Below, piece by piece: positions 6,444 through 26,548 of a stretch of DNA of 64,000 nt (positions are counted from its first letter, which is position 1; each line of letters starts with the position of its first letter). Location: positions 43,028,001-43,092,000 of the forward strand of contig OZ287755.1 of the NCBI GenBank assembly GCA_965649765.1, given 5' to 3'. Under the pieces are notes generated by a model. The model had not been told where the DNA came from. It did no database searches and saw only the letters and a list, made by a program, of their open reading frames with translations. The DNA comes from Bispira polyomma (Eukaryota). Made by a program: the position numbers and the translations under genes.

Positions 6444-6622
6444 AGTAGTAGTAGGGGGAGTGATTCACGCTGATGATTAGTGCCCAATTTGTGCCCAATC
6501 CCATATACTTGTGCACAAAATGAAAAAAGCCCGTGACCTTGAGTCTTTTTGCCCTCTTATAGATTTTTTACTTTGATTGAATACATTATGATTTTGCTAC
6601 CTCCACATACTACCACCTTCTT

Positions 6623-7087
6623 CTAAAAACCTCCAAGTTGGAACATGGGTTCTAATTTAGGTGCTACTTTTAGTACAGCATTCTTGTAACAGAAGCTTTC
6701 TGTCCTTTCTACTCTCTTCCACATTTTAACTATTTGTCGCCAATCACTTACAGTTAAAGAGAATTCTCTCCCTCCACTGAATATTGAAAGGTATATTATA
6801 TCCCTCGGAAACTTTCTGAATTTGCCCATTTTATTATAGGAGAGTTCTTTCGTTATTCTAATTTTTTCAGATTCACTAATAGGAATTGACATCTTTGTAT
6901 TTTCTCTCCTTATCGCCTTGTTGATAGTGGGTATACTTCTGAATAATTTTTTGTAGCTTTCATCTCTTATTGTTATGTTGTTGAAACCAAAATATTTATT
7001 TCTTTCACTGAAAGATTTTCTTTTAATATTCAATGTTCTTCCCAATATGTCTTTTCCAATATCTACCGCAGTCTTTATTTGAGCCAT
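6623..7087 (-). CDS. Maverick hypothetical protein, possibly tandem PC4-like ssDNA-binding domains (intact copy)
   Basis: 154-aa ORF; ITIRDESYKKLFRSIPTINKAI and FSLTVSDWRQIVKMWKRVE resemble the PC4 ISL..EQW..L helix motif. Confidence 0.6.
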   Translation of the reverse strand: MAQIKTAVDIGKDILGRTLNIKRKSFSERNKYFGFNNITIRDESYKKLFRSIPTINKAIRRENTKMSIPISESEKIRITKELSYNKMGKFRKFPRDIIYLSIFSGGREFSLTVSDWRQIVKMWKRVERTESFCYKNAVLKVAPKLEPMFQLGGF

Positions 7088-7155
7088 TTTTACAAATGAA
7101 TGAAATTTTTATGAAGTCTACCTCCCTCTTATACCTTATTACTTTATTTGTATAG

Positions 7156-7503
7156 TCAAGTAACCTTTTTTTCAAATTTTAATCTCACCGCATTCAAACC
7201 TTTTGTTCTTTTTATGCTAAAGTGGTAGCTGCTGTCTGTGTCATATAATTTAATGAATAGTTCTTTCATTGTTAATTCTTTTATTTCAAAACATAAATGA
7301 ATTCTTTCACTTATGTTTATTTTATGTAACAAAACCAAATGTGTAGTTCTTTGACATATACTCTTGTAAAAGATTTGGTTCTTATAGAACTCTGTTAAAT
7401 CTCTTAGTTCTAAAGCATTTTGAAATCCTTCACCTTCTTTCTTCCAACTCATAATGGCTTTTGAATCACAATCTGGATTGTTTATTGTCAATAAATGTGA
7501 CAT
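7156..7503 (-). CDS. Maverick hypothetical protein (115 aa)
   Basis: ATG-initiated ORF with identical translation in both arms. Confidence 0.7.
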   Translation of the reverse strand: MSHLLTINNPDCDSKAIMSWKKEGEGFQNALELRDLTEFYKNQIFYKSICQRTTHLVLLHKINISERIHLCFEIKELTMKELFIKLYDTDSSYHFSIKRTKGLNAVRLKFEKKVT

Positions 7504-7616
7504 TTTAAAATTACTGTGTTTGTGTTGTTGTTGTTTTTTTTCCTATTCTTTAAAGGTGAAATGAGAACAACTATTTTTTTCTAAACTACCTTTATTTTCA
7601 ATATTATTTACACGAA

Positions 7617-7619
<3 letters not shown>

Positions 7620-7655
<36 letters not shown>
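7620..7655. repeat. (TA)n microsatellite, mirrored at about 25342-25377
   Basis: Read directly from the sequence. Confidence 0.9.
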
Positions 7656-7658
<3 letters not shown>

Positions 7659-7730
7659 CAAAATAAAATACACAAATCACCATACATATAATATTATTTA
7701 CAACACACTATGAACATATTTCTAAACTAT

Positions 7731-8408
7731 TTAGTCATCTAACAGAATCATTTTTATGTAACCACAGTCTTTTGAATGTCTTTGATGTTCGGCTAAGGGC
7801 TCGTCCAGGTACTCCCAGGAATGAAGAATTATAGAACACCAGAGGCACTGACATCTGTCCCCTAAACCAGTGTACATCAATCCAGCTCTGGCTAACTTTT
7901 CTGGTTTTACTATCTTGCCATCGCTCCACCCTCTGTAGCTTTCCAGACGATTTTGATACAACTTATAATTACCTCTTTCAATTTTTGTCAATTCACTAGG
8001 GAATACAGTTTGCACGTATTCGCAATTCGGGTTGAGTTTGGAGTGCATTTTCAACGGTTCATCAAAGTAATTCCAGTTCTTCACCTGCATGTAACACCAC
8101 GGACATACACAACTGTCACCATAACCAGTGTATCGAAATCCCCCCCTGGCTGCATCCTCTCCACTCACTCCAGTACTTTTTGGCCAACCTCTGAAACTTT
8201 CTAATCTGTTTTTGAAGATTTTGTAATCTAGCCAATCCCTAGTCATAGCCAGTGATTCTTCCTCACATTGGAAATTGCGGAACTTTTTTGTCAGTTCACT
8301 TATTCTGTCTTGCATATCTATTCTTCTTCTATAACTAGATGCAGAGGCTGCAACAACACAGTCAGTCTCATCTTCCCTTGCTCTCCTTTGAGTTGTATTC
8401 TCTGCCAT
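7731..8408 (-). CDS. IAP-like protein with two BIR domains and no RING (intact, intronless)
   Basis: Two RLESF/Y..W...LA.AG/GF.YTG.GD.C.C.WC...H...C motifs; likely ATG at 8408 downstream of a TATAAA box. Confidence 0.92.
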   Translation of the reverse strand: MAENTTQRRAREDETDCVVAASASSYRRRIDMQDRISELTKKFRNFQCEEESLAMTRDWLDYKIFKNRLESFRGWPKSTGVSGEDAARGGFRYTGYGDSCVCPWCYMQVKNWNYFDEPLKMHSKLNPNCEYVQTVFPSELTKIERGNYKLYQNRLESYRGWSDGKIVKPEKLARAGLMYTGLGDRCQCLWCSIILHSWEYLDEPLAEHQRHSKDCGYIKMILLDD

Positions 8409-8519
8409 CTTGTTTCCTTTCTGACTGCAATGTGGTTGCTTTCCCAATTTATATCCTTTTTTTAATATTGAGTCATTTTCTTTTATTTCACTAAAACATT
8501 ACTCACAATTCATAATTTA

Positions 8520-8800
8520 TTCATCAATTACATCATCACTATTTACCTTGTCAGCATTGTTTAACCAATTACCTCATCATTATTTACTTTGACTATTTAT
8601 CCAAATACTCTGTCATTATTTACTTTGACAGCTTTGTTTAACCAACAACCTCATCATTATTTACTTTGACAACTTGACCAAATAATGTCTCACTATTTAC
8701 TTTGACAGCTTTGTTTATCCAATTACCTCATCATTATTTACTTTGTTCATTTAACCAAATAATGTGTCAATATTTACTTTGACAGCATTGATTTATCTAC
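8520..8800 (-). repeat. Array of about 36-41-bp degenerate repeats upstream of the IAP (mirrored at about 24200-24470)
   Basis: Recurrent (TG)TCAAAGTAAATA units. Confidence 0.85.
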
Positions 8801-8839
8801 TTTGATGGTAATTGATTAAAAGGTTAAACCATTGGCATT

Positions 8840-9286
8840 TTAAATGAACTTTGAAATATAAAATGATTTTATATTCACATCATTAACTTTATAATCTTTA
8901 TCGAAAGTCTTTAAGATATCAGTATAGCTCTTTCCCCTACATTTATGGTAAGCGTAATATAGACAATATTCCCCACATAACATGCTCTTGTAACTTTGTA
9001 CTCTTGCGTTATTTTTGCTATAACTATCCTGATGTCTCAACACAAAATTTTCAAAACTTTTCGGAGCTAAATCACCTAAAGAATCAAAATATTCCGCCTC
9101 TTGTTTATTTACATACATTGCTACCCAATGTTCCCCTTCATGAGGGTAAGGTTTTGTGTTTACAATCAGAATTTTAGGTAAATTTTGAAATTTTACTGGT
9201 AATTCATTTGCTGCATATACACCGCCATAATATTTGCTGATGAATCTATCATTCAACATTTTTTCTTTTATCTCAGAAATATTCAT
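8840..9286 (-). CDS. Adenain-like cysteine protease (left copy, intact)
   Basis: IVNT...GEHWVA...EYFDSLG...VQ.....LCGEYC, giving the His-Asp-Gln-Cys catalytic set. Confidence 0.93.
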   Translation of the reverse strand: MNISEIKEKMLNDRFISKYYGGVYAANELPVKFQNLPKILIVNTKPYPHEGEHWVAMYVNKQEAEYFDSLGDLAPKSFENFVLRHQDSYSKNNARVQSYKSMLCGEYCLYYAYHKCRGKSYTDILKTFDKDYKVNDVNIKSFYISKFI

Positions 9287-10381
9287 TGTTCTACAACTCT
9301 TGCCTCATCAATAGTTAACATAGATGGGAAACGAGCATATAATATTGCAGTCACACTTTCTACTAAAGCTTTTCCAAAATTTACAGTTATTCTTGTGTGA
9401 CCCTTTTTACGTTCTGATTTAAGTTCACCACTCACATTACTGTCTATATTAAACACATAAAGACAATATCCATTCGGATAATCTGTATATTTAATAAGAT
9501 TGTTCTCATTTTCACCATATCTCCCATAAAACAAGCTATTATATGCTTCTGCGTATTATCCTCCAGTAAAAGTAGGTCTGTTAGACAAATATCCTTCTTT
9601 ATAATTTGGTCGAAGTGGTCTGCATGGAACGGGCACACCATCTACACTGAATTCCAAGTAATTTAAATGGTAGTGATGAAATTTAAATGGATTTACAGTA
9701 TAGCTACCGCTATAACCTTCTCCTGGAACAAAACCCACAATTAATTTGCTAGGAACCTCTCCATGAAAAATTCCATCATCACTCCACATCATATTACCTT
9801 TTGGTATGGTAAAAGTCTTAAATTCGCTTTGCCAGAAAGGGTATAATGCTGGTCCCATCTTCAAAGCCTTTGCATGAGCTAGTACGAGCTCGGGACTTAA
9901 TTTTACCTGACAGATCTTTAAAGCGGCATTAATAATTTCTATCTTATACTCCTTATCTCCATCCTTTGCCATTAATCTGAATCTATCAGTGCTGGGATAT
10001 AATTTTAGATTGATCTGCACTCCGTTTACAATGAGTCTATCTTGATCGGCAATATCCACATGTAAGGGGCCGTATAAGTCCACTACTGTGCTTGCTGCAC
10101 ATCTGTCTTGTCTAGTAGCAAACCCTATATTGTCATCTCCAGTTACATCATTATGAGTAGCAGCTGTGTCATTTGCAACCAATTCATTTTCCAACTGTCC
10201 CTGCTGACTCACAAAACTATTATGTAACCATACATCTATCAAACTTTTGTATGGATAGTTAATTCCAACACCTGGTGAAATATTGATTTGCTGTAGAGTT
10301 AGATCTGCCTGACGAAAGAGAGAATGTAATGTTAAATTGACGGGACCAACTATAGCAGTCGACCCTAAGTCACTTCCATTA
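9283..10381 (-). pseudogene. Major capsid protein, C-terminal two-thirds (left copy; N-terminus missing, TAA at 9556-9558)
   Basis: VGPVNLTLHSLFRQ, GPLHVDIADQDRLIVNGV and NPFKFHHY motifs typical of Polinton major capsid proteins. Confidence 0.9.
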
Positions 10382-10666
10382 GGCTTCTGTCAATCTCTGT
10401 GTTAATGAATTCACTACCCCAAAGTTATACATACTATCATCTTTAACCATACATTATAAAATAACTTTACTTGTAACTTACTCATAACACCACTGTCCTA
10501 AACATAATATAATTTGAAATTCAAATAATAGAGACTGTAGCTGGAGGTAAAAGAATAATATCATATATAAAGAAATTTGGAAACCCAGAACATTCTAATA
10601 AGGCATACTAATAAAATTTAAAACTCATCTTCCTCTTGTCATATTCCTTAATTTACCCAAATTAAT

Positions 10667-11148
10667 TTAGAATTCATCCTCCTCTGTTTCTTTCCTAGAT
10701 AATGACCTGGTCACCATCCTGTTTGCACCCTTACCTTTACCCCCTTCCTTGTCTACCTTAGTTTTAACCTGAGTTTCAGAATTTACTGGGGAGGGCCTTA
10801 TAAACAATGTGGTTTCTTCCTCGTCATTTTGTTCAACTTCCCCCATATCAAATGCTGGTACCCTAAACATAACACCCTGTCCCCTACACCTTTTACATCT
10901 AACCAAAATAAATATAATCACTGTGGGAATACCTCCAGCTACAGCCCCTATCAGTAAACTTATTTCAACAATGTGTATTGTTTCTCTCTTGTTTTCCTCT
11001 GCTTCATCATCACCCTCCTGTCCATTCCTCTCCTCTTCCTTCACTTCCACCCTCCCCTCTTCCTTCACTTCCTCCCTCTCCTCTTCCTTCACTTTCACCC
11101 TATCCTCCTCCTTCTCCTCCTCTTCCCCTTCATCCTCGCCTGGTTCAT
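10667..11148 (-). CDS. Glu-rich single-pass membrane protein fragment or exon
   Basis: Acidic tract, hydrophobic ISLLIGAVAGGIPTVIIFILV followed by RCKRCR stop-transfer; preceded by an acceptor-like tattgtAG and no good ATG. Confidence 0.55.
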
Positions 11149-11200
11149 CTACAATATAAAATACATATACCACTTATTAATATTTTTTTACTCTATTTAG

Positions 11201-12016
11201 CAACCAGCATGGGTGATCTCCATTACTGCCCAGCAACCAAAACAGCAGTCTCAGCGACACCTTCAACTCTTACTACCTCCTCGCCAGCAGCCACAACAAC
11301 AGGCTGTTCACCCTCAACAGCAGCACCTACAACAGGCTGATCAGTCTCAACAACAGGCTCTTCACCCTCAACAGCAGCACCTACAACAGGCTGACCAGCC
11401 TCAACAACAGGCTCTTCACCCTCAACAGCAGCACCTACAACAGGCTGACCAGTCTCAACAACAGGCTCTTCAACCTCAACAGCAGCACCTACAACAGGCT
11501 GATCAGCCTCAACAACAGGCTCTTCACCCTCAACAGCAGCACCTACAACAGGCTGATCAGTCTCAACAACAGGCTCTTCACCCTCAACAGCAGCACCTAC
11601 AACAGGCTGATCAGCCTCAACAACAGGCTGTTCACCCTCAACAGCAGCACCTACAACAGGCTGATCAGTCTCAACAACAGGCTCTTCACCCTCAACAGCT
11701 GCCACAACATCAGGCTGGACAGCCTCAACAGCAGCACCTACAACAGGCTATTCGGTCTCAACAGCTGCCACAACATCAGGCTGATCACCCTCAACAGCAG
11801 CTCCTACAACAGGCTCTTCGGCCTCAACAGCTGCCACAACATCAGGCTGATCAGCCTCAACAGCAGCTCCTACAACAGGCTCAGCATCCTCAACTACATG
11901 ACCTACAACAGGCTGAGTACCAATTTCAAGAGTTACCTCTACTCAGTCTTCAAGATTTAGATGATTTTGAAGATTTTTTTGAGAGGGGAGACAATGAATT
12001 CCTCTATGGAGGTTAA
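11201..12016 (+). CDS. Gln-rich repeat protein fragment with acidic C-terminal tail
   Basis: Frame open from 11201 after an acceptor-like ctctatttAG; (QQQALHPQQQHLQQADQS/P)n, then LQDLDDFEDFFERGDNEFLYGG. Confidence 0.5.
   Translation, partial: QPAWVISITAQQPKQQSQRHLQLLLPPRQQPQQQAVHPQQQHLQQADQSQQQALHPQQQHLQQADQPQQQALHPQQQHLQQADQSQQQALQPQQQHLQQADQPQQQALHPQQQHLQQADQSQQQALHPQQQHLQQADQPQQQAVHPQQQHLQQADQSQQQALHPQQLPQHQAGQPQQQHLQQAIRSQQLPQHQADHPQQQLLQQALRPQQLPQHQADQPQQQLLQQAQHPQLHDLQQAEYQFQELPLLSLQDLDDFEDFFERGDNEFLYGG
11294..11915. repeat. 54-bp minisatellite (about 8 units plus degenerate longer units)
   Basis: caacaacaggctcttcaccctcaacagcagcacctacaacaggctgatcagtct repeated. Confidence 0.92.
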
Positions 12017-12054
12017 TGTTGACTCCTCTAGTGAGGATGAAGTTTACTACTGAT

Positions 12055-12360
12055 GTAGATTTTGAAGAAGTATCTTATTATCACTCAGTAGTAGATTTTG
12101 TAGACATATCTTAATATCATTTTTTTATTTCTTTTATTAACTCAGTAGTAGATTTTGTAGAAGTATCTTATTATCACCTTTTTTATTTCTTTTTTTAATT
12201 AAATCTTTTAAAAACTTCTCTTCCAAAGTCTCTTATTTCTATCAACACAGAACAATAATCATTTATCACAAATTTGTTATTGAAGTGTATTACTGAATCC
12301 TTTTTTATACAACTATGTAGATTTTCTAGAACTATCTTAATGATACCTTTTTATTTATTT
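12055..12360. repeat. Short degenerate direct repeats
   Basis: gtagattttgtagaagtatcttattatcac-like unit occurs four times. Confidence 0.7.
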
Positions 12361-13707
12361 TTTAAAATGAATATTAAATGTATATTAAATGTTTTGACAA
12401 CTTCACCTCCAAAGTCTATTTTTTCTAACAATAAAGAACAATAATCATTTCACACAACTGTGATATTTTTATTTGATTTGTTTTCACAATAACTACACCA
12501 CCTCCTCAAACAAATAATTCTACCACCACCACCTTAAAGAGTTCTACATCTTAACTAGCTTCTAATACCATTTGTCAATTCAGTACATCCTTTGACTGTC
12601 AGCTCAGGTATGGGATAATAGGTACAGTCAACTTGGCTACGGACAGTCAGGAGCACCATTTTAGGAATATTTTCCTTTAAAAGGAAAGTGTCTATCTGAG
12701 TGATCTTGCTCTCGTATATAATCAAAGTACTGATTTTATCATCCGAGATTTTGTAAATGTTTGCATTTGTCACAAGCCTGCAATACAGCTTCCCCCCCCC
12801 CCCCCCCCCTCAGAAAACGACATTCCTGTGCTTCTCCCAACCCCATCCAACAAACTAAAATAGTGCTCAATATTAAACACCTCATATTTATCACGTACAA
12901 ACAAAAAAAGAAATCTATGAGATATGGATATAGTCATTTGAGAGACAAAACAATTAATCTCTCATCCCGTTTTACGAGGTCTTGAATTAAAAGAATAAGC
13001 TAACTACTTGATTTGCTTGGGGCTAAACTTCATCCGTCTGCTGAGAAATTTTTCCTAGAAATACCCATAAGATGCAACAACATTCAAAATTAAACCACCA
13101 TTTAATTCTAAAAACCATAGAAATGCAAGAAATAGATTAATTTTATAGTAGAATTTCGTTTATAGTAACTGGACGAATTGTCTGTCCCTGACCGAATAAG
13201 GTGTCCGTGCAAATTGCCTGCTGCTTGTGTTTATAATTTGATTGCCTGACATAAATCGGACACCAAATAATAAATGTGTCATAACTTCAAATTAAATAAC
13301 TTTATTGACCTAACAATACTGTACTTCCTTGAATATTGGTACTGTAATTGTTTCATATGAAACTCGTGGTCCATTTTCTACCTAGATTATTATTTAAAAT
13401 TTGACAGTCGATTTACAACTGGCGGACGAATTATAACCAGAGGCAATACATTAAACTGTCAGGTGACATTAATAACACCCTCCGCCAATTAAGATCAGCC
13501 ACCAATATACAACGGTCTGTCAGCCCCGTGTCAGTCAAATCCGAGCGGTTACAAACTGTATATTATGATCGGATGATTTACAACTAGCGGGCGAATTTTA
13601 AACACAGGCAGTATAACCACATAACGCTGTGTAACCCTTTAATGCATATTTTATATTTTTCTCACCTCAAATCTTTCTCAAAACTGAAATAATCAGAGAT
13701 TAAAAAT

Positions 13708-14030
13708 ATGTTCACATCTTGCACAAGTATGTTATCCCACCAAATGAAACTAGTGGTCGGTACTAGGAATAGAACACTGGAGCTTCTTTCTGATAATCTG
13801 ATCAAAACACTAACCACTAAAAGATGGGAGATCATGTAATGGATAAAATGTTACAGCCAGCACACAGAAGCAATATAACAGATAGGAGCACTTAGTATTT
13901 AGCTTGTTTGTTGCACTGTATGTGAACAGACATCATTGTAGAAGTGTTCTCCCCCCATTTAAAATTTACAAACATAAAAAACAACTGATAGAGTAAAGGC
14001 TTCGGGAAACCTCACTCTCTGCTGTTGATA
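13708..14030. repeat. About 320-bp diverged direct repeat, copy 1 (begins with a minus-strand SINE head)
   Basis: Similar to 16163-16487; the first 110 bp also resemble 49708-49825. Confidence 0.8.
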
Positions 14031-16162
14031 ATTTGTCGCATCTCACAGGATGCGTTTTTACAAATGAAACCAGAACAAAGACATAGAACAACCATTCATA
14101 TATATGTGTCTAGAAACTTAACAAAACTCCTGCACAGAAATATTAGATTTAGGTCTTTGAGAAAACCAATTTTTTTTTTGGGGTGCAAAATTATTTAAAA
14201 TAAGGCATAAAAAAGGACACTGAAATATTAAAACAAAACAACAACAGAACCAATTAACAAAATTTACACATTATACAAATTGATAGATTTATCCTTTCTA
14301 TCCACTTTTATTTTTTTTCTAACTTGAAATGGCAAACTATGGGTCTTGTTACATTATCAATGCCTAACAGTCATTGTAGAGGTTCAAATGTTTGTGCTTG
14401 AACCATACACAGAGAGGCAGTAGTAAGTTTTAAGCCTGGCTGGCCAATAGGACAATAGATGGTCTGGCGTCCTCCGAGTAATGCTATTAATGCCTCCAAC
14501 TTCCTGTTTCTGTATGAAAAGATCTTGTTACCTATGATACTTTTACTGTTATAAAAGTTTTGGCATAGGTGTCACCTGGTTCTCATAAACCGCATGGTCT
14601 GTTGTTTTTTGTTTTTTTTCATTTATGTATTTAGTTGCCAGACATGTATGTGATAAGTTGGACTTGTCATAAGACAAGCACTAATTCCCGTTCATTTGCA
14701 TAGGGTGATTGCAAACTATAGATCACATTATAAATAGCCTGTGAAAGTGACTAGATGAACATAAAGCTTTGATAAAAAGAATACAATTTATTGCTTTGGG
14801 GCTCAAAATGTTTTTGTGATTGGTATAAATTTTTCGGTTAATTGTTGTTAACAGTAGGGCATATAAGTGTTCTGTTTAGGTTAATTGGGTAATGTGACAC
14901 TTCTATCAATGTCAGCTTCACTACATTCCGTCAACTAAAAATGTAAGCCCAGTGTTTAGATTCCTGAGAAACATTTATTCGTATTTACTGACACATGTGA
15001 TATTGCAAGGTAACAAATGGCAGGTTGCGAAACTTAGTCTTATTTGAATGAAGGAGGATTTTTGATATTTTTTGCGCACTTTGAGGCTGCTCGAGACGTC
15101 TTGAGACTTGCAGGAATGTTACAGCTCTGGAGTACGAATGTGCCATGTATTATTGTCATGTGTTACAAATATTTACCATAGAAATTGCCTGGCCACAATA
15201 CACACAGTTAAGGAGTTTAAATGTCAACACAAAGTAATAATTTTTTACATTAACGAACCAGTGCTACTGGCATGTTCTATTTGCAGGCAATAAAGGCAAA
15301 CATGAGTCTACAGTGGCAGATTCGAAGCAGGTTAGAGCATTGTTACATATGTACATTTATGTTTATCATTGCAAATGGTGTTATAATGCCATAGTAATTG
15401 GTATAGAATGTAATGCTGGAAAATATGCCTTGACAATTGTAAGACAAGTGTCCACAGTGATATTTGAGGGATAAATCAAGCTTTGGACTTTAGTAGTTAC
15501 AAAAAATGAAAGAAAAACATTATTTTCATTTACAATACAGTATTGTCAGTTACAAGCTTATTTTCGCTTCAGTACAGTATTGTCAGTTACAAGCTAAAAG
15601 TTGTGTGAGTGTGAGTTCGAATTTTAAGGCTGTTTTAATTTTAGAATTATAGTACAATACATTGCATGGTCTTTAAAGATGCTGCTTTTGTTGATATTCT
15701 TACTATATCTCTACACCCATCAGACATAATTCATTTAAAATCATCATCACAGATACTTTTTGTTATATCAGTGGTATTGTGTTACAATTGCCTAGTACCT
15801 CTAAAATGGTAAACGCTATAAGGAAACGACCTGTCCTAAAAATGGGCCTAGTCCCAAAAAATGACGAAAATATTCTTCAAACCTCCCATTGGAATGTAGT
15901 AGGCGAGGTCCATTCTTAAAGCGCGGCTTTTATTTCGAAACACCCACTTAAACAAAAACCTGCTGAGGAATGCAGTAAAGTGTCTATTGTCTTTGCAGTG
16001 ATGACTCCTTGGAATACTTTACGCAAATTAATTACATGTATTAATATATTTCATTTAATTGATCTTACTTTTGTAAAACTTAGATTGTACCAAGAAAAAA
16101 TACAGAAATATCAAATATTGAGAATACTATAATAATTGGTCATCTAAGCCACCAGTCAAACT

Positions 16163-16487
16163 TGTGTTCACACCTTGCACAAGCATGTTATCCCACCAAA
16201 TGAAACTATCGGCCAGTACCAAGAGTAGAACACAGACCCTTCTGATAATCAGATCAACACATTAACCACTAGATGATGGGGGATTGTGTAATAAAAATAA
16301 TGTTACAGCCAGCACACAGAAGCAATAACAGATAGGAGCACTTAGGATTTAGCTTGTTTGTTCCACTATGTGAACGGAAATCATTGTAAAGGTGTTTTCC
16401 CCATTTAAAATTTTACAAACACACAAAAATAACAGATAGGGTAAAGTGACTAAAGTGGTTGGGAAACCTCTCTCTGTGGTGTTGACA
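16163..16487. repeat. About 320-bp diverged direct repeat, copy 2
   Basis: Shared atgttatcccaccaaatgaaacta and gttacagccagcacacagaagcaata...gataggagcacttag blocks. Confidence 0.8.
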
Positions 16488-16700
16488 CCAACTCCCTCTT
16501 AAATATTGAGAATACTATATTAATGCAGATCAGATCGCCATTTATTTATTTATTTATCACCATGAAAAATTTAAAAAATGAGCCATTTATATAGTTCAGG
16601 CAACAAATTTAACTGTGTAGATATCTGTACATTTATTTATTATTCCCATAATTAAAATGCCCTTTGTCTTAAAGTACATTTTCAAAATTGAAATGAAATA

Positions 16701-17010
16701 GTGGTCTTTGTGGCCTAGCGGCCAGAGCATTTAACTTTGAATCAGAGGGTCCGAGAGGGTCACAGGTTTGATCCTTGCTGCAGGTCTGAAGATTGTACCC
16801 TTGGACAAGGTACTTTACACTAAGTTGTCCCTTTCCATCCAAGCGTATAAATGGGTATCTGGCTGCTAATGGGTGTTTAATCTCTGCACTGTATGTGGCA
16901 GAATAGCTAGCATATGCTCCCTTGGGGAGCTGAGTTGAACAATTGGTTGACAAGTGAAAGAACACAAATACACTCTAATTAACGTAATCTATTATATAAA
17001 GCACTTTCTG
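16701..17010 (+). mobile_element. tRNA-derived SINE with CORE-like central domain
   Basis: A-box tggcctagcgg, B-box-like ggtttgatcc, cccttggacaaggtactt core, tataaatgggta block. Confidence 0.75.
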
Positions 17011-17869
17011 TAAGAACCACTGTTTGCACAGATATATTTATCAGCTTTCTGAAACGTGTGGCTAATTTCACAATAATGTATTACCAGTATAATATTAAAC
17101 TTATAGGTCTCATATCAAGTTTTTAATATGCATGCAGTAAGATAACAGAACAAGCATAAACCTATATATATTTAACCTTTAATTGAGCTGTATGAGAGAA
17201 AGAAGACCATCTTTTTAAATAAAGATTGTGTACAGATACGACAGCTAAGAATAGCATATATAGGTTGTTAAAGTCCTAATGAGAAAAGAAAATACTAAAG
17301 TAAAGACAAATACATTGAAGTGGTTTTCTAGTGATAAGTAGTTACTTTAATTTGAAATGTATTATTTATTACTTTGTAACTTATACTGTCGTTCTCTAGT
17401 CTCAGTGTTTTTGATTGGAACTTAAAATGACAAATAAGCTGTCTCATGTTTTCACTGTACATTAAATGAATGAAGACATTTCAAGTTCATGAAGATCCAT
17501 TTCTCATGTCAGTTAAGTTACCAGTGTATTAATCAGTTGTGGAAGCTATAAATACCAATGATATAACAAACAAAATTGGGACAATATAGGACCAAAGTTT
17601 ACAGGTGGTATGTACTCATCATCAGGCCTGTGTCACATGCACACAGTTTGCAAGTTTATAGGTTTGCAATAATTATCAAATGATTTGATATGTGGTATAA
17701 AGACTATATATCTAAAATGTGTATATAGAAATAAATAAATCATATTTAAAACTTGTACCTTTACCAATAATAAACTCTTACTGTCATATACAGGACATGA
17801 TGTAAAATCGCAGATTTATGCATATCAATACATTGGTCAAAATTTGAATGATGTCAGTCCCTTGGTAAT

Positions 17870-18125
17870 CAGTTTAATGTTAATGTTTTACTCCTATAGT
17901 GCCACAATTTATGACCAGGCCTCCTCTGTGACACTTATCCAAATCAGTAGAATGAAAAGTTCGATAGGGGAATAGGTTCGTGATCAGAGTACAGTCGTGA
18001 CCAGGAGACAAAAGTTAAGACAGAAAAGCGAGTTGATACACATGTGTTCTGAGCTTTTCCCTGAAGCCTGTAATCCTTGTCTCATTGTTAAAGACAAGTA
18101 GGGAGACTATTCTACTCAGCAGCTG
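17870..18125 (-). mobile_element. L2-like LINE 3' remnant inside the Maverick
   Basis: NETRITGFREKLRTHVYQLAF*; clearly diverged homolog of 30433-30690. Confidence 0.75.
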
Positions 18126-18836
18126 TTTGTCCCTCTGTCCCAAAATACAAGGCTGGTTACAAGTGCACTGTTTTGGGCTCAATTTACTTGCATGGAACTG
18201 CACGAGTTCCAAGATGAGTCTGATAAAAATTTTTGTAAAGGCATATCAAAGTCAAGTCTCAATAATGCCATGGAGTTGTTTGAAAGTGTGCTTCATAACC
18301 AAATACCACTTTCTTCAACCAATATCGGTTTTAGAGCAAAAAACAATACAATTTTTACTTACATGCAGGATAGAGCAGGCTTCTCGTACTATTATATCAA
18401 AAAGGAGGTTTTGGATGACGGAATTCGTACCAAACCATTAAACATGGTTTTGAAACCATGGAAACAAAAAATTGTTATAGTTGAAAATGCTCTTGACCTT
18501 CTATCAAACGGTTTTTGCTTTGAGTTGAAAGTCGATGGAAAGACGTATTCAAGTGTTGAAGAATACTTTCAAGAAAGGGAACATGATTTCAATCCAAATG
18601 CAAACACTAGTTTGGAGGAGAATTGGGAGTGGTTTCAAGAAAGAGACAAGATTATGCAAGAAATTTTAAAAGTAAAACAGTGTTGTAATTTTGCTCAGGT
18701 CTTAAAAAATACTCGGAATTCTTATATATGTTACAATGTTTCAGATAATTTGTATTGGAATGTGGGTTTACCGCAGAGACTAGTGAAGGTTATAAATATT
18801 CTCATCCAGGTCAAAATCAAATGGGAGAGATATTGA
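18126..18836 (+). CDS. Maverick hypothetical protein, probably 5'-truncated
   Basis: The 214-aa ORF from 18192 stays open upstream to the LINE junction and lies in tandem with the ATPase. Confidence 0.6.
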   Translation, partial: FVPLSQNTRLVTSALFWAQFTCMELHEFQDESDKNFCKGISKSSLNNAMELFESVLHNQIPLSSTNIGFRAKNNTIFTYMQDRAGFSYYYIKKEVLDDGIRTKPLNMVLKPWKQKIVIVENALDLLSNGFCFELKVDGKTYSSVEEYFQEREHDFNPNANTSLEENWEWFQERDKIMQEILKVKQCCNFAQVLKNTRNSYICYNVSDNLYWNVGLPQRLVKVINILIQVKIKWERY

Positions 18837-18861
18837 TGAAAGTTAGAGAAACATTATAAAA

Positions 18862-19494
18862 ATGTCCATAAAATTTGAAGATCCAGCAAGTATACTTATT
18901 GCTGGTTGTAGTAATTCTGGTAAAACCACTTTTCTGTATCAGTTGTTAAAGTGTAAGGATGCAATGTTCCAGAAACCTGTATGTAAAATACTATACTGCT
19001 ATTCTGTTTGGCAAAATATTTTTGATAAATTACAAGATGAAATAAATATTAAGTTCATTAAGGGTCTGCCTGAGGAGATAGAGATAGATAGCATGAATGA
19101 CGGGAATCATAATATTTGTATAATAGACGATTTGCAGGAAGAAGTGTCTGGAAATAAATTTATTGAAAAATTATACACAACCCTCTGTCATCATTATTAC
19201 CTCACAGTAATAACTATTTTACAAAATTTATTTTATCAAGGTAAAAGCTTAAGAACAATCAATTTAAATAGTCATTATTTGATATTATTTAAAAACCCCC
19301 GAGATATAAATCAAATAAAGTATTTAGGAAACCAAACTGGGTTAAAGAAGACTTTAGAAGAAGCATATAAAAATGTAACAGACGAAAGCTACAATTATCT
19401 TTTAGTTGATCTCTCTCCGCACTCATCTACCCAATATAAATTAAGAAGTCATATTTTGCCGAAAGAAGATACTGTGGTATATCTTAGAAAGTAA
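18862..19494 (+). CDS. Packaging ATPase (A32/FtsK-like)
   Basis: Walker A GCSNSGKT, Walker B ICIIDD, ILQNLF...RTINLNSHYLILFKNPRD. Confidence 0.95.
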   Translation: MSIKFEDPASILIAGCSNSGKTTFLYQLLKCKDAMFQKPVCKILYCYSVWQNIFDKLQDEINIKFIKGLPEEIEIDSMNDGNHNICIIDDLQEEVSGNKFIEKLYTTLCHHYYLTVITILQNLFYQGKSLRTINLNSHYLILFKNPRDINQIKYLGNQTGLKKTLEEAYKNVTDESYNYLLVDLSPHSSTQYKLRSHILPKEDTVVYLRK

Positions 19495-19513
19495 GTCTAT
19501 AAGTATTATAAAT

Positions 19514-20244: not shown

Positions 20245-20293
20245 TATAAAAAGAGAAAAAAAGCCACAATATGCTTGGACTTTTAAATAGACA

Positions 20294-21220
20294 ATGGACG
20301 AAAATCAGGAAAAATATCTACACGACCTTTATTACAATCCAAAAAATGCAGTGTCTTATAGCGGTTTCAATAAATTTTATAGCTTCATCCAAAAAAACAG
20401 TCAGCAAAATTTTTCCAAAAAGGATATTAGGGAATGGTTGGGAAAACAAGATGCTTTTGTCTTGCATCGACCTGTGATAAGACATATTAAACGTCCAATT
20501 ACCATTGCAGTGAGAAAAGACCAACGTGAGTACAAGAGCCTAATATTTAGAAATTGGTTAAAAGAAAAAGGAGTTCAACATTTCATGAGCACCAATGAAA
20601 CAAAGGTGGCGATGGCTGAAAGAGTAATAAAAACAATCAAACTAAAACTGTACCGAAGGATGACAGCAGAAAACAATTATAAATGGAATGATGCGCTTGC
20701 TAGTCTCACAGAGTCCTACAACAATTCCTTTCATAGAATGATTAAAACCACTCCTTCAAAGGTGAGGGAAATGGATGATTATGAGTTATGGAAAAATCAG
20801 TATATTAAAGACTACGATGTGAAAAAACCAAAATTAAAGAAAAACAAAAAACCAAGATCAGAAAAATTACCTTATAAATATAAAATAGGAGATATAGTAA
20901 AGGTTGCGTATCTATCCAGACCTTTCGAGAGAGAATACGATGAGAAATATTCTGGTGAAAATTTCACCGTTGCTGATAGAAATATAAATCAGGGTAAGGC
21001 TCAGTACAAATTGAAAGATTTAAATAACGAACTAGTATTGGGAAATTTTTTTAATAAGGAATTGCAAAAGGTTTATGTTTCTAAAGAGACCACATATCGA
21101 ATAGAAAAAATTCTGAAAAGTAGAAAAAGAGGGGGTAAAAAGGAATATTTAGTAAGGTGGGAAAATTATTCCTCAAAATTCGACAGCTGGGTGAAGGAAG
21201 AAGACATTCAGGATATATAA
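20294..21220 (+). pseudogene. Retroviral-like (c-) integrase with C-terminal chromodomain; catalytic core deleted in frame
   Basis: YYNPK..SYSG, WL..QDA..LH, KVAMAERVIKTIK, YNNSFHRMIKTTP, chromodomain YRIEKIL...EYLVRWENY...DSWV; the W.ADL...IDVFS...TD segment is missing at KDQ/REY. Confidence 0.9.
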
Positions 21221-21258
21221 GTTAAATGTAAAACTATGCAAAGTAAAAATAAACCAAA

Positions 21259-21669
21259 ATGAATCAATTATACCTACATATTCATTCCACCAATTCGATA
21301 AATTTTCACCCACAAAATCATGCATGGGAATTTATTGTAGAAATAGTAGAGGGTATAGAACTTGAAGGGAGATGGAAATGTGGTCTAGCAGAAATTAGAT
21401 ATGATAAAGAGGTTGTAGAGGAAATATATGTATATTGTGACATTGTTGATGAAAGTCTGATTGAAGATTTTTGTAGACCTATTTTAAGAGTGGTAGATAA
21501 AGCTGAACATTACAATCAAATCTACTATAAAAGGGTGAACAGAACAAATCTAGAGAGAATTAAGGTATAGAAAACTGGTAAAAACTTAAAAAAACTAAAC
21601 ATTTCAAATACCCCTACTTACGTGGTTTTAAGTCTTCAAAAAGACAATAACAATGGTCAATTGGAATAA
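21259..21669 (+). pseudogene. Minor capsid (penton-like) protein with in-frame TAG at 21568-21570
   Basis: LYLHIHS.NS...P.N...F.V...IELEGRW..GL.EI and IYVYCDIV...ILRVV; the frame continues past the TAG to TYVVLSL. Confidence 0.75.
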
Positions 21670-21940
21670 GGTTTGTGAAAATATGAGGGAGGGGAAATTG
21701 AGAATGGATAGAAAACTATATATAATAGGGGAACAGGCAGGTGGTGGGGGAAATAATGATAACGAACTAGTTAGCATAATTTCTCCTACAGAGCAGCAGG
21801 TTGATATGGCTAGATCAGAACTAAAAAAGAAACACAAAAAGGGAAAAGTAGTTAAAAGAAAAACCAAGAAAGTTGCAAAGAGGAAGAAAATAAAACATAG
21901 AAAGAAAAAACAAGTTAAAAAAACAAAGAAAAGAAAATAG
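21653..21940 (+). CDS. Small basic (core-like) Maverick protein
   Basis: W..V..NM.EGKL, QAGGG, ISPTEQQVDMARSEL, Lys-rich tail. Confidence 0.75.
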   Translation: MVNWNKVCENMREGKLRMDRKLYIIGEQAGGGGNNDNELVSIISPTEQQVDMARSELKKKHKKGKVVKRKTKKVAKRKKIKHRKKKQVKKTKKRK

Positions 21941-22033
21941 TGAATATACCTTGAAAAGTATATATATATATATAGTGTTAGAGTCAAATAATCTTTAGTT
22001 CAATTCTTGCTTTTGAGTGAATAAAAAATTAAA

Positions 22034-23716
22034 ATGAATGTCTTACAGGAAAAGGTGGCTCTATTTCAAAAACCTTTGATAGATCCATCAGTCCATCATA
22101 TTGATTGGGTTGAATACAGACCAACCGGTCAAATTAAAAGTGGAAATGTAATTGAATTTAATGTAACGAGGATGGGGCGGATTATATAGATTTGAAGAAA
22201 AGTAGATTGCATATTTCAATGAAAATTACAAATAGTAATGGAAGTGACAAGGAAGGGGGTAAAGGTAAGGGTGCAAACAGGATGGTGACCAGGTCATTAT
22301 CTAGGAAAGAAACAGAGGAGGATGAATTCTAAATTAATTTGGGTAAATTAAGGAATATGACAAGAGGAAGATGAGTTTTAAATTTTATTAGTATGCCTTA
22401 TTAGAATGTTCTGGGTTTCCAAATTTCTTTATATATGATATTATTCTTTTACCTCCAGCTACAGTCTCTATTATTTGAATTTCAAATTATATTATGTTTA
22501 GGACAGTGGTGTTATGAGTAAGTTACAAGTAAAGTTATTTTATAATGTATGGTTAAAGATGATAGTATGTATAACTTTGGGGTAGTGAATTCATTAACAC
22601 AGAGATTGACAGAAGCCTAATGGAAGTGACTTAGGGTCGACTGCTATAGTTGGTCCCGTCAATTTAACATTACATTCTCTCTTTCGTCAGGCAGATCTAA
22701 CTCTACAGCAAATCAATATTTCACCAGGTGTTGGAATTAACTATCCATACAAAAGTTCGATAGATGTATGGTTACATAATAGTTTTGTGAGTCAGCAGGG
22801 ACAGTTGGAAAATGAATTGTTTGCAAATGACACAGCTGCTACTCATAATGATGTAACTGGAGATGACAATATAGGGTTTGCTACTAGACAAGACAGATGT
22901 GCAGCAAGCACAGTAGTGGACTTATACGGCCCCTTACATGTGGATATTGCCGATCAAGATAGAGTCATTGTAAACGGAGTGCAGATCAATCTAAAATTAT
23001 ATCCCAGCACTGATAGATTCAGATTAATGGCAAAGGATGGAGATAAGGAGTATAAGATAGAAATTATTAATGCCGCTTTAAAGATCTGTCAGGTAAAATT
23101 AAGTCCCGAGCTCATACTAGCTCATGCAAAGGCTTTGAAGGTGGGACCAGCATTATACCCTTTCTGGCAAAGCGAATTTAAGACTTTTACCATACCAAAA
23201 GGTAATATGATGTGGAGTGATGATGGAACTTTTCATGGAGAGGTTCCTAGCAAATTAATTGTGGGTTTTGTTCCAGGAGAAGGTTATAGCGGTAGCTATA
23301 CTGTAAATCCATTTAAATTTCATCACTACCATTTAAATTACTTGGAATTCAGTGTAGATGGTGTGCCCGTTCCATGCAGACCACTTTGACCAAATTATAA
23401 AGAAGGATATTTGTCTAACAGACCTACTTTTACTGGAGAACAATACGCAGAAGCATATAATAGCTTGTTTTATGGGAGATATGGTGAAAATGAGAACAAT
23501 CTTATTAAATATACAGATTATCCGAATGGATATTGTCTTTATGTGTTTAATATAGACAGTAATGTGAGTGGTGAACTTAAATCAGAACGTAAAAAGGGTC
23601 ACACAAGAATAACTGTAAATTTTGGAAAAGCTTTAGTAGAAAGTGTAACTGCAATATTATATGCTCGTTTCCCATCTATGTTAACTATTGATGAGGCAAG
23701 AGTTGTAGAACAATGA
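22034..23716 (+). pseudogene. Major capsid protein (frameshift near 22168, 369-bp insert 22249-22617, TGA at 23387)
   Basis: N-terminus MNVLQEKVALFQKP...WVEYRPTGQI....IEFNV/DYIDLKKSRLHI is not in the ORF track; the gene resumes NGSDLGSTAIVGPVNL after the insert. Confidence 0.9.
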
Positions 23717-24159
23717 ATACTTCTGAGATAAAAGAAAAAATGTTGAATGATAGATTCATCAGCAAATATTATGGCGGTGTATATGCAGCAAATGAATTAC
23801 CAGTAAAATTTCAAAATTTACCTAAAATTCTGATTGTAAACACAAAACCTTACCCTCACGAAGGGGAACATTGGGTAGCAATGTATGTAAATAAACAAGA
23901 GGCGGAATATTTTGATTCTTTAGGTGATTTAGCTCCGAAAAGTTTTGAAAATTTTGTGTTGAGACATCAGGATAGTTATAGCAAAAATAACGCAAGAGTA
24001 CAAAGTTACAAGAGCATGTTGTGTGGGGAATATTGTCTATATTACGCTTACCATAAATGTAGGGGAAAGAGCTATACTGATATCTTAAAGACTTTCGATA
24101 AAGATTATAAAGTTAATGATGTGAATATAAAATCATTTTATATTTCGAAGTTCATTTAA
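23713..24159 (+). CDS. Adenain-like cysteine protease (right copy, intact)
   Basis: Same motifs as the left copy; ATGA overlap with the capsid stop. Confidence 0.93.
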   Translation: MNTSEIKEKMLNDRFISKYYGGVYAANELPVKFQNLPKILIVNTKPYPHEGEHWVAMYVNKQEAEYFDSLGDLAPKSFENFVLRHQDSYSKNNARVQSYKSMLCGEYCLYYAYHKCRGKSYTDILKTFDKDYKVNDVNIKSFYISKFI

Positions 24160-24589
24160 AATGCCAATGGTTTAACCTTTTAATCAATAACCATCAAAGT
24201 AGATAAATCAATGCTGTCAAAGTAAATACTGACACATTATTTGGTTAAATGAACAAAGTAAATAATGATGAGGTAATTGGATAAACAAAGCTGTCAAAGT
24301 AAATAGTGAGACATTATTTGGTCAAGTTGTCAAAGTAAATAATGATGAGGTTGTTGGTTAAACAAAGCTGTCAAAGTAAATAATGACAGAGTATTTGGAT
24401 AAATAGTCAAAGTAAATAATGATGAGGTAATTGGTTAAACAATGCTGACAAGGTAAATAGTATAATGTAATTGATGAATAAATTATGAATTGTGAGTAAT
24501 GTTTTAGTGAAATAAAAGAAAATGACTCAATATTAAAAAAAGGATATAAATTGGGAAAGCAACCACATTGCAGTCAGAAAGGAAACAAG

Positions 24590-25266
24590 ATGGCAGAGAA
24601 TACAACTCAAAGGAGAGCAAGGGAAGATGAGACTGACTGTGTTGTTGCAGCCTCTGCATCTAGTTATAGAAGAAGAATAGATATGCAAGACAGAATAAGT
24701 GAACTGACAAAAAAGTTCCGCAATTTCCAATGTGAAGAAGAATCACTGGCTATGACTAGGGATTGGCTAGATTACAAAATCTTCAAAAACAGATTAGAAA
24801 GTTTCAGAGGTTGGCCAAAAAGTACCGGAGTGAGTGGAGAGGATGCAGCCAAGGGGGATTTCGATACACTGGTTATGGTGACAGTTGTGTATGTCCGTGG
24901 TGTTACATGCAGGTGAAGAACTGGAATTACTTTGATGAACCGTTGAAAATGCACTCCAAACTCAACCCGAATTGCGAATACGTGCAAACTGTATTCCCTA
25001 GTGAATTGACAAAAATTGAAAGAGGTAATTATAAGTTGTATCAAAATCGTCTGGAAAGCTACAGAGGGTGGAGCGATGGCAAGATAGTAAAACCAGAAAA
25101 GTTAGCCAGAGCTGGATTGATGTACACTGGTTTAGGGGACAGATGTCAGTGCCTCTGGTGTTCTATAATTCTCCATTCCTGGGAGTACCTGGACGAGCCC
25201 TTAGCCGAACATCAAAGACATTCAAAAGACTGTAGTTACATAAAAATGATTCTGTTAGATGACTAA
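24590..25266 (+). pseudogene. Two-BIR IAP-like gene, right copy, frameshifted near 24851
   Basis: Split over ORFs 24551-24916 and 24763-25266; 1 nt shorter than the left copy in the G run. Confidence 0.9.
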
Positions 25267-25338
25267 ATAGTTTAGAAATATGTTCATAGTGTGTTGTAAA
25301 TAATATTATATGTATGGTGATTTGTGTATTTTATTTTG

Positions 25339-25382
<44 letters not shown>

Positions 25383-25493
25383 TTTGTGTAAATAATATTG
25401 AAAATAAAGGTAGTTTAGAAAAAAATAGTTGTTCTCATTTCACCTTTAAAGAAAAGGGAAAAAAAACAACAACACAAACACAGTAATTTTAAA

Positions 25494-25841
25494 ATGTCAC
25501 ATCTATTGACAATAAACAATCCAGATTGTGATTCAAAAGCCATTATGAGTTGGAAAAAAGAAGGTGAAGGGTTTCAAAATGCTTTAGAACTAAGAGATTT
25601 AACAGAGTTCTATAAGAACCAAATCTTTTACAAGAGTATATGTCAAAGAACTACACATTTGGTTTTGTTACATAAAATAAACATAAGTGAAAGAATTCAT
25701 TTATGTTTTGAAATAAAAGAATTAACAATGAAAGAACTATTCATTAAATTATATGACACAGACAGCAGCTACCACTTTAGCATAAAAAGAACAAAAGGTT
25801 TGAATGCGGTGAGATTAAAATTTGAAAAAAAGGTTACTTGA
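25494..25841 (+). CDS. Maverick hypothetical protein (115 aa), right copy
   Basis: Same translation as 7156-7503. Confidence 0.7.
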   Translation: MSHLLTINNPDCDSKAIMSWKKEGEGFQNALELRDLTEFYKNQIFYKSICQRTTHLVLLHKINISERIHLCFEIKELTMKELFIKLYDTDSSYHFSIKRTKGLNAVRLKFEKKVT

Positions 25842-25909
25842 CTATACAAATAAAGTAATAAGGTATAAGAGGGAGGTAGACTTCATAAAAATTTCATTCA
25901 TTTGTAAAA

Positions 25910-26374
25910 ATGGCTCAAATAAAGACTGAGGTAGATAATGGAAAAGATATATTGGGAAGAATATTGAATATTAAAAGAAAATCTTTCAGTGAAAGAAATA
26001 AATATTTTGGTTTAAACAACATAACAATAAGAGATGAAAGCTACAAAAAATTATTCAGAAGTATACCCACTATCAACAAGGCGATAAGGAGAGAAAATAC
26101 AAAGATGTCAATTCCTATTAGTGAATCTGAAAAAATTAGAATAACAAAAGAACTCTCCTATAATAAGATGGGCAAATTCAGAAAGTTTCCGAGGGATATA
26201 ATATACCTTTCAATATTCAGTGGAGGGAGAGAATTCTCTTTAACTGTAAGTGATTGGTGACAAATAGTTAAAATGTGGAAGAGAGTAGAAAGGACAGAAA
26301 GCTTCTGTTACAAGAATGCTGTACTAAAAGTAGCACCTAAATTGGAACCCATGTTCCAACTTGGAGGTTTTTAG
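25910..26374 (+). pseudogene. Right copy of PC4-like ORF with CGA>TGA stop at 26258-26260
   Basis: Collinear with the intact copy at 6623-7087. Confidence 0.7.
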
Positions 26375-26548
26375 AAGAAGGTGGTAGTATGTGGAGGTAG
26401 CAAAATCATAATGTATTCAATCAAAGTAAAATATCTATAAGAGGGCAAAAAGACTCGAGGTCACGGGCTTTTTTCATTTTGTGCACAAGTACATGGGATT
26501 GGGCACTAATCATCAGCGTGAATCACTCCCCCTACTACTACTGGTACT

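What the first reader, a model, noticed from the sequence alone, without database searches (positions are those of the whole stretch)
6444..26542. Polymerase-less Maverick built from two copies of the same end: about 4.3-kb gene-bearing inverted repeats
Seen: 6444-10753 is the reverse complement of 22246-26542 (about 99% identical by eye). Each arm carries a capsid C-terminus, adenain, IAP and two more ORFs. The unit is bounded by AGTAGTAGT termini and one perfect 6-bp TSD, so it integrated as a single piece. No pPolB ORF or remnant is recognisable. Known: Maverick TIRs are usually well under about 1.5 kb and non-coding, and pPolB is a hallmark gene. Inference: this is either a copy-back/defective-interfering genome whose polymerase end was replaced by a copy of the other end, or a composite transposon of two inverted Maverick ends. 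At 20.1 kb it stays within normal Maverick length, consistent with packaging or mobilisation by a helper.
Basis: partly seen in the sequence, partly recalled or inferred. Interest (0 to 1): 0.9.

Follow-up and report, generated by a model that had tools for sequence, protein, structure and literature searches.

The report
Two-ended Maverick carrying stolen host DNA
A virus-like jumping element in an animal genome has one end replaced by a mirror copy of its other end and most of its DNA-polymerase gene replaced by 4.5 kb of ordinary DNA from another chromosome, yet it sits at two separate insertion sites, so it likely spread by borrowing the polymerase of its relatives.

Summary
The 20.1-kb element has 4.3-kb inverted arms (98.7%), AGT termini and a 6-bp TSD inside an LTR retroelement. 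Its parent family is in the same genome: eight copies with both ends and 6-bp TSDs, ~150-170-bp TIRs where measured (seven), polymerase in the MIDDLE. Comparison shows separate events: (1) the parent's left 3-3.9 kb replaced by an inverted copy of its right 3.94 kb; (2) ~7 kb including the polymerase core replaced by 4.5 kb of host DNA whose donor lies on another chromosome (a 218-codon polymerase tail remains); (3) in this copy only, a late 372-bp extension of the repeat that splits the capsid gene. A second copy with the same junctions for (1) and (2) and a different TSD shows spread after polymerase loss, likely via a helper. Arms group by element, not by side. A second lineage independently swapped its polymerase for host DNA. 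Gene-bearing 2-kb TIRs and mobile polB-less polintons are already in a preprint; this scan noted a palindromic Polinton family elsewhere (e1-8072377, unchecked). New variant of a known kind.

The parts
6438..6443 (+). Left copy of the 6-bp target-site duplication (GGTACT), inside the gag-like ORF of an LTR retroelement
6444..10381 (-). New left arm: inverted copy of the parent's right 3.94 kb, starting at the (AGT)n terminus; replaces 3.0-3.9 kb of the parent's left end
6623..7087 (-). Unknown 154-aa ORF (arm gene; right-arm copy has a stop)
7156..7503 (-). Unknown 115-aa ORF (arm gene)
7731..8408 (-). IAP-like gene, two BIR domains (right-arm copy frameshifted)
   Evidence: Pfam BIR E 8e-36
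8840..9286 (-). Adenain-like cysteine protease
   Evidence: best PDB sequence match is protease S273R, weak (E 0.017); position in gene order
9286..10380 (-). Major capsid gene, codons 75-439 only, with a stop
   Evidence: parent protein folds as a double jelly-roll
10381..10382 (.). Junction J1 (arm replacement), 1-nt microhomology; found only here (twice) and in the C1 copy
10382..13704 (+). Parent's left-internal accessory region in parent orientation (membrane-type ORF 10667-11173 minus strand, 54-bp repeat ORF region 11288-11916)
13705..18211 (.). Captured host chromosomal DNA, 97.0% to G000:C12:16846661-16842156; replaces ~7 kb of the parent including the polymerase core; junctions J3 (3-nt microhomology) and J4 (0-1 nt)
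18214..18856 (+). pPolB remnant: last ~218 codons, ending in the NADAR-like tail; frameshifted near its end
18862..19494 (+). Packaging-type ATPase, open frame
   Evidence: Pox_A32 E 0.0016 (below cut-off)
20294..21220 (+). rve integrase with C-terminal chromodomain; codons 80-146 missing in this copy
21259..21657 (+). ORF between integrase and capsid, possibly the minor capsid gene (position only, not tested); has a stop
22034..22248 (+). N-terminal part of the major capsid gene, frameshifted
22246..22617 (-). 372-bp copy of 10382-10753, 0 differences, inserted into the capsid gene with a 13-bp duplication (junction J2, 3-nt microhomology); absent from the C1 copy
22618..26542 (+). Original right arm: capsid C-part, protease, IAP, two ORFs, (ACT)n terminus
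26543..26548 (+). Right copy of the TSD; the interrupted retroelement continues (RNase H, integrase fragments to ~29600)

Best explanation
This is a defective Maverick (Polinton) derived from a short-TIR family in the same genome: its left end is an inverted copy of its right end, its polymerase core is replaced by host DNA from another chromosome, and it likely reached its two insertion sites with polymerase supplied in trans by related elements. SHOWN: the parent architecture, the four junctions, the donor locus, two insertions with different TSDs and unrelated flanks, and arms that group by element. INFERRED: (a) both exchanges were break repair or template switching at 0-3-nt microhomologies, most simply with the short TIR as the first anchor for copying the opposite arm inward (order and compartment, chromosomal or free linear DNA, unresolved); (b) the ancestor kept termini, integrase, ATPase, capsid and protease but lost polymerase and the PC4-like ORF, so it needed a helper only for replication; (c) after insertion the two arms kept exchanging sequence near their inner ends, and one late switch lengthened the repeat by 372 bp.
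For: Parents: of 12 other near-identical family members fetched, 8 have both termini, 6-bp TSDs and the polymerase region, with ~150-170-bp TIRs in the 7 measured. Sister copy G000:C1:89032888-89052083: TSD GACGAT, same J1, J3, J4, ~98% throughout. Cargo occurs full-length at exactly 3 places: window, C1, donor; no parent match in 40 kb round the donor except a nested repeat of one copy; 16 of 16 listed variants in other samples' contigs carry the donor letter. The four arms form one clade (100/99) split by element (97/95, 99/96); private variants shared by both arms of one element 5 and 5, across elements 0 in each of 4 pairings (chance 2e-5). Identical tracts at the inner ends: 512 bp here (P 0.005, carrying 3 window-only variants) and 830 bp in C1. 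A second lineage (C1:42583321-42607999 and a truncated C6 copy) shares a different polymerase-to-host-DNA junction, donor on C9.
Against: Only two copies, so amplification was small. No intermediate (arm replacement alone, or cargo alone) was found, so the order is unknown. No helper was identified: the polymerase region is split over several ORFs in 7 of 7 parent copies listed. No independent read or contig was seen to bridge J2, J3 or J4 (contigs only, table cut). How the arms were homogenised is not resolved: divergence between the elements in Maverick-derived single-copy DNA (1.10%) does not differ significantly from within-element arm divergence (0.89%, P 0.25). Cargo shows no recognisable gene.
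Confidence: 0.75

Rival explanations
1. Copy-back defective genome made and corrected outside the chromosome: arm replacement happened on the free linear genome during protein-primed strand-displacement replication, and the 3.9-kb arms were made identical by panhandle pairing before each insertion, as LTRs are identical at integration.
For: 8 of the 10 element-shared variants lie 19-124 bp from unshared differences, not in long converted tracts. Length stays near the parent's (about 19.9 kb against 21.2-22.3 kb for the three least deleted parents). Panhandle replication is described for adenovirus (PMC9863843, passage).
Against: Element-shared coding variants are 7 non-synonymous to 3 synonymous, as expected for decay in a chromosome. 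Single-copy divergence between elements (1.10%) equals cross-element arm divergence (1.10-1.29%), which fits conversion after insertion slightly better. The inner-end tracts show that late chromosomal conversion does occur.
Confidence: 0.35
2. Wholly chromosomal history without helper replication: rearranged in place by gap repair, then moved by its own integrase as a cut-and-paste transposon, with copy number raised by host replication or repair.
For: The ancestor kept an integrase gene (complete but frameshifted in C1); microhomology junctions and ectopic templated capture fit host break repair.
Against: Cut-and-paste movement of a Maverick from chromosomal DNA is not established (own knowledge); no empty source site was looked for or seen; the family's ends carry the short repeats linked to protein-primed replication (PMC8097293, passage).
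Confidence: 0.15
3. Composite transposon: two inverted Maverick ends mobilised together with the host DNA between them.
For: Host DNA does lie between two like ends.
Against: The cargo is bounded on both sides by parent-internal sequence colinear with one parent genome, not by element ends; no Maverick at the donor; the arms are monophyletic and 0.8-1.0% apart, whereas parent copies differ by 1.2-3.0%.
Confidence: 0.04
4. Assembly artefact, wholly or in part (the 372-bp extension and identical inner tracts being the suspect part).
For: The extension is 100% identical to its source; a near-perfect fold-back of a sister family exists on C9; no bridging contig.
Against: Arms differ at 40 sites; perfect TSD and empty-site match; the same J1, J3, J4 recur on another chromosome in the other orientation with another TSD. 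Inner ends abut unique DNA, where mis-polishing is least expected.
Confidence: 0.06

Closest known systems
Polintons/Mavericks (adintoviruses) of animals
   Same: (AGT)n//(ACT)n ends, 6-bp TSD, 13-25 kb, integrase, ATPase, double jelly-roll capsid, protease, IAP accessory gene (PMC8097293 and 10.1101/2023.08.22.554363 passages; PMC8502044 section 3.1 and passages).
   Different: TIR 3.9-4.3 kb and coding, against 46-1,447 bp in intact vertebrate elements; polymerase core absent; 4.5 kb of host DNA inside.
Pieris/Euchloe polintons in the Pannagram preprint (10.1101/2025.02.07.637071, sections 12 and 13 read)
   Same: ~2-kb TIRs holding hexon and adenain, two copies of each; separate groups lacking polB, with LINE or gypsy cargo, that still amplified.
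   Different: There the long-TIR elements are called full-length and no origin is given in the text; cargo is a transposon. Here both traits are in one element, the short-TIR parent gives exact breakpoints, and the cargo is a traceable single-copy chromosomal stretch. Their figures and extended data were not seen.
Chromosomal arm replacement in Streptomyces (PMC2920896, passages)
   Same: One end of a protein-capped linear replicon deleted and replaced by a duplicate of the other end at a few bases of overlap, creating long new TIRs.
   Different: Bacterial chromosome, 88-kb scale, not an integrating element; an analogy, not kinship.
Nematode Maverick cargo (10.1101/2022.07.12.499685, passages)
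   Same: Mavericks carry 2-5 kb of host-derived DNA.
   Different: There cargo genes ride in largely complete elements and donors are remote; here cargo displaces the polymerase and the donor is 97% identical in the same genome.
Adenovirus defective or helper-dependent genomes; non-autonomous Polintons of Kapitonov and Jurka 2006 (both recalled; the paper is not held)
   Same: Ends kept, replication gene lost, helper needed.
   Different: Recalled, not tested; interference with a helper and packaging are not shown here.

Membership tests
Polinton/Maverick | (AGT)n//(ACT)n termini and 6-bp TSD | tested here: met
Polinton/Maverick | Protein-primed family-B polymerase | tested here: not met
   Only codons ~1039-1256 remain; motifs A, B, C absent. 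The parent ORF qualifies through relatives: 19 of 120 listed homologues carry PF03175; no direct Pfam polymerase hit.
Polinton/Maverick | Short non-coding TIRs (about 50-1,500 bp) | tested here: not met
   3.94-4.3 kb and coding here; met by the parents, ~150-170 bp (range)
Polinton/Maverick | rve integrase | tested here: met
   Parent rve E 1.4e-8; present here but missing codons 80-146
Polinton/Maverick | Double jelly-roll major capsid protein | tested here: met
   Parent protein model pLDDT 92, matches PBCV-1, iridovirus, Sputnik and mavirus capsids at E 1e-12 to 1e-15; gene split or truncated in the window
Polinton/Maverick | Packaging ATPase and cysteine protease | tested here: inconclusive
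   Only weak matches (Pox_A32 E 0.0016; S273R E 0.017); gene order agrees
Polinton/Maverick | Minor capsid protein | not tested
   Candidate by position only (21259-21657)
Alpha/Beta adintovirus | PolB class (pfam03175 or divergent) with N-terminal OTU domain | tested here: inconclusive
   No PF03175 or OTU hit on the parent ORFs; some homologues carry PF03175; definition
Copy-back / defective-interfering genome | One end replaced by the complement of the other at a non-homologous switch | tested here: met
   J1, 1-nt microhomology
Copy-back / defective-interfering genome | Propagation without its own polymerase | tested here: met
   Two insertions with different TSDs share the polymerase-deleting junctions
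Copy-back / defective-interfering genome | Made during viral replication; packaged; interferes with the helper | not testable with these tools
   Divergence tests did not separate chromosomal from extrachromosomal origin
Composite transposon | Two element copies flanking formerly adjacent host DNA | tested here: not met
   Interior colinear with one parent; no Maverick at the donor

The most novel reading that the evidence does not exclude
Mavericks routinely throw off helper-dependent transducing genomes: they trade the replication module for several kilobases of arbitrary host chromosome, rebuild an end by copying the other, stay near packageable length, and are replicated, arm-corrected and re-integrated by helpers. 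This would be the missing first step by which Mavericks pick up cargo for horizontal transfer, caught twice in one family with donors still traceable.
Probability: 0.35. Interest if true: 0.8.

Novelty: new variant of a known kind. Interest (0 to 1): 0.6.

Why it matters
How Mavericks replicate, acquire host cargo and keep moving without a polymerase is open; a recent preprint raises the last question outright. Here parent, donor, breakpoints and two insertions lie in one genome, so the route from a short-TIR element to a long-TIR, polymerase-less, host-DNA-carrying element can be read at base resolution, and capture happened twice in one family. It gives a concrete origin for gene-bearing Polinton TIRs (arm replacement), shows TIR length is not fixed, warns that arm divergence is blurred by arm-to-arm copying when used for dating, and supplies junction markers for finding free or packaged forms. 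It is a small (two-copy), decayed lineage with no sign of host function.

Tried and rejected
Pfam, NCBIfam and PDB sequence searches gave no direct polymerase or capsid hit; identity came from homologues, motifs and a fold search. Read check: 3 runs (at most 2 samples, 1 study, contigs only) hold the cargo with donor letters; none of the listed pieces bridges J2, J3 or J4, which is no evidence either way; no RNA holder listed. An inverted pair of capsid hits on C9 looked like a second arm-replacement element but is a palindrome that runs into the flanks without a TSD: rejected. Segmental duplication of the C8 and C1 copies: rejected, since similarity stops at the termini and TSDs differ. A chimeric ORF from a cargo ATG into the polymerase tail (18192-18836) is treated as chance. 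The test of single-copy against arm divergence was not decisive (P 0.25 without cargo, 0.013 with). A first variant count that required all four arms (4 and 6 shared) skipped a 664-bp gap in C1 and was redone pairwise with a stricter rule (5 and 5). Paper searches found no description of arm replacement or of a traced chromosomal donor in a Polinton; the library lacks most subscription journals, Repbase and Kapitonov and Jurka 2006.
Full report
Observation. Self-BLAST of the window gives one large inverted repeat, 6444-10753 against 22246-26542, 98.66% over 4317 columns. The ends read (AGT)n and (ACT)n and are flanked by GGTACT on both sides. The element interrupts an LTR retroelement: the left flank is a gag-like ORF, the right flank carries RNase H and integrase fragments, and each flank searched alone meets the other with a 6-bp overlap in 3 of 3 uninterrupted copies. 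So 20,099 bp inserted as one unit. The window is G000:C8:43028001-43092000 of a 1.04-Gb, 75-contig assembly; the nearest named polymerase relatives are from molluscs at 41-45% identity.

Parent family. A search with the terminus found 12 other members at 96% or more (40 of 54 candidates scored), all fetched. Eight have both termini, a 6-bp TSD and the polymerase region; TIRs are about 150-170 bp in the seven measured. One more keeps the polymerase region but no left terminus was found. Gene order is: left TIR, PC4-like ORF, Cys/His-rich ORF, accessory region, 318-aa ORF, pPolB, ATPase, integrase-chromo, small ORF, major capsid, protease, IAP, two ORFs, right TIR. The polymerase assignment rests on homologues (19 of 120 listed carry PF03175) and motifs A, B, C at 538, 854, 953 (motif patterns recalled), not on a direct Pfam hit. 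The capsid assignment rests on a model (pLDDT 92) matching double jelly-roll capsids. The polymerase region is split over several ORFs in 7 of 7 parents listed.

Event 1, arm replacement. Window 6444-10381 is the inverted right 3.94 kb of the parent, joined at J1 with one shared base to a point 3.0-3.9 kb inside the parent's left end (five of six measured parents; the sixth has a deletion). What was lost is the PC4-like and Cys/His-rich ORFs, not the polymerase.

Event 2, host DNA for polymerase. Between 13704 and 18214 the parents have 6.8-7.2 kb; the window has 4.5 kb that matches G000:C12:16846661-16842156 in one piece at 97.0%, with no Maverick in the 40 kb around it. It occurs full-length at three places only: window, C1 copy, donor. 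In contigs of other samples 16 of 16 listed variants in this stretch carry the donor letter, 5 of them donor-only, so the donor is an ordinary locus. Junctions show 3 and 0-1 shared bases. No gene was recognised in the cargo.

Spread. G000:C1:89032888-89052083 (19,196 bp, TSD GACGAT, opposite orientation) has the same J1, J3 and J4 and is about 98% identical throughout. A J1 search found the junction only there and twice in the window, with the list running down to 77% hits. Similarity stops at the termini, so this is transposition after polymerase loss, not segmental duplication. Both copies have since decayed differently. No intermediate with only one of the two events was found.

Arm behaviour. 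The four arms form one clade and split by element. Private variants shared by two arms: 5 in the window, 5 in C1, 0 in each of the four cross-element pairings (2e-5 if pairings were equally likely). Both elements have an identical tract at the inner end (512 and 830 bp). In the window that tract includes 372 bp of interior sequence copied into the right arm, 13 bp from the arm base, splitting the capsid gene; it has no differences from its source and carries window-only variants, so it is late, most likely chromosomal, unless it is an assembly error. The other 8 shared variants lie close to unshared ones, which suits correction before insertion; but their 7:3 non-synonymous ratio (counted on the and 37 variants) and the divergence comparison (single-copy 1.10%, cross-arm 1.10-1.29%, within-arm 0.89%, P 0.25) suit conversion after insertion as well or slightly better. 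I leave this open, leaning to chromosomal conversion.

Recurrence. Two further members (C1:42583321-42607999, TSD CCTGAT, short TIRs; and a left-truncated copy on C6) share another junction at polymerase codon ~1084 to host DNA that matches C9 near 15.635-15.648 Mb, where no Maverick core sequence was found. So 4 of 13 family members belong to two independent lineages that swapped polymerase for host DNA.

Mechanism. Most likely a Maverick was repaired or switched template twice at microhomologies, giving a genome with both ends, integrase and virion genes but no polymerase; a helper of the same family then replicated it and it integrated at least twice. Helper dependence, compartment and order are inferred. 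Length stayed near 19.9 kb against 21.2-22.3 kb for the least deleted parents, compatible with, but weak evidence for, a packaging limit.

Comparison. Intact vertebrate Mavericks have 46-1,447-bp TIRs (PMC8097293, passages); a general range of 100-1,500 bp is given in 10.1101/2023.08.22.554363 (passages). The Pannagram preprint (sections 12 and 13 read; figures and extended data not seen and may bear on novelty) already reports ~2-kb TIRs holding hexon and adenain in butterflies, and polB-less polintons with transposon cargo that still amplified. Host cargo in nematode Mavericks is described in 10.1101/2022.07.12.499685 (passages). Arm replacement is known from Streptomyces (PMC2920896, passages) and panhandle replication from adenovirus (PMC9863843, passage). 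PMC8502044 (section 3.1 and passages), PMC6431247 and 10.1101/2024.01.15.575659 (passages) added background only. Searches did not show a Polinton case with parent breakpoints or a traced chromosomal donor. This scan holds an unchecked note on a palindromic Polinton family in another genome (e1-8072377) and none for this genome.

Verdict. A real, decayed, non-autonomous Maverick derivative; not a member of the autonomous family by the polymerase and TIR tests, but clearly descended from one. Each trait has precedent; their combination with parent, donor, breakpoints, second insertion and an independent repeat of the capture is what is new. New variant of a known kind; interest 0.6.

Noticed in passing
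G000:C1:42583321-42607999 (L010-L012) and C6 ~10044346-10053331 (L024-L025): Second polymerase-less lineage of the same family with short TIRs and rearranged host DNA from C9 ~15.635-15.648 Mb; the C1 copy also has an unexamined 6.8-kb insertion in the ATPase gene.
   Followed up: partly
G000:C9:50385001-50423514 (L045-L048): Palindrome with arms of at least 19 kb (99.0-99.9% in the main blocks) centred in a sister-family Maverick with a 78-bp spacer; runs into flanking DNA, no TSD. Fold-back event or assembly artefact.
   Followed up: partly
L018:1504-5271 and window 18214-18856: The family's polymerase ends in a NADAR-like domain (Pfam E 1e-11); several homologues share this fusion.
   Followed up: no
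L049-L054, L055-L062: At least two sister Maverick families with the same gene order (65-90% protein identity), one copy with 100% identical 208-bp TIRs.
   Followed up: partly
window 5777-6443 and 26543-~30300: The target is an LTR retroelement of a family with about 40 scored matches in the genome; itself decayed.
   Followed up: partly
window 18192-18836: An ATG in the captured host DNA opens a 214-aa frame running into the polymerase tail; probably chance.
   Followed up: no
window 10667-11173 and 11223-11942, minus strand: Accessory ORFs of the family: an acidic protein with a hydrophobic segment and a 54-bp-repeat ORF whose repeat number varies among copies; no Pfam match.
   Followed up: no
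L004:5330-6152, L007:5223-5510, L013:3759-4585: Three parents carry a local duplication or rearrangement of ~288 bp starting at the same position as J1, suggesting a rearrangement-prone spot.
   Followed up: no
window 31628-32404, 34037-34546, 45854-47257, 53672-54404: Tandem arrays with 147-, 146-, 168- and 163-bp units outside the element.
   Followed up: no
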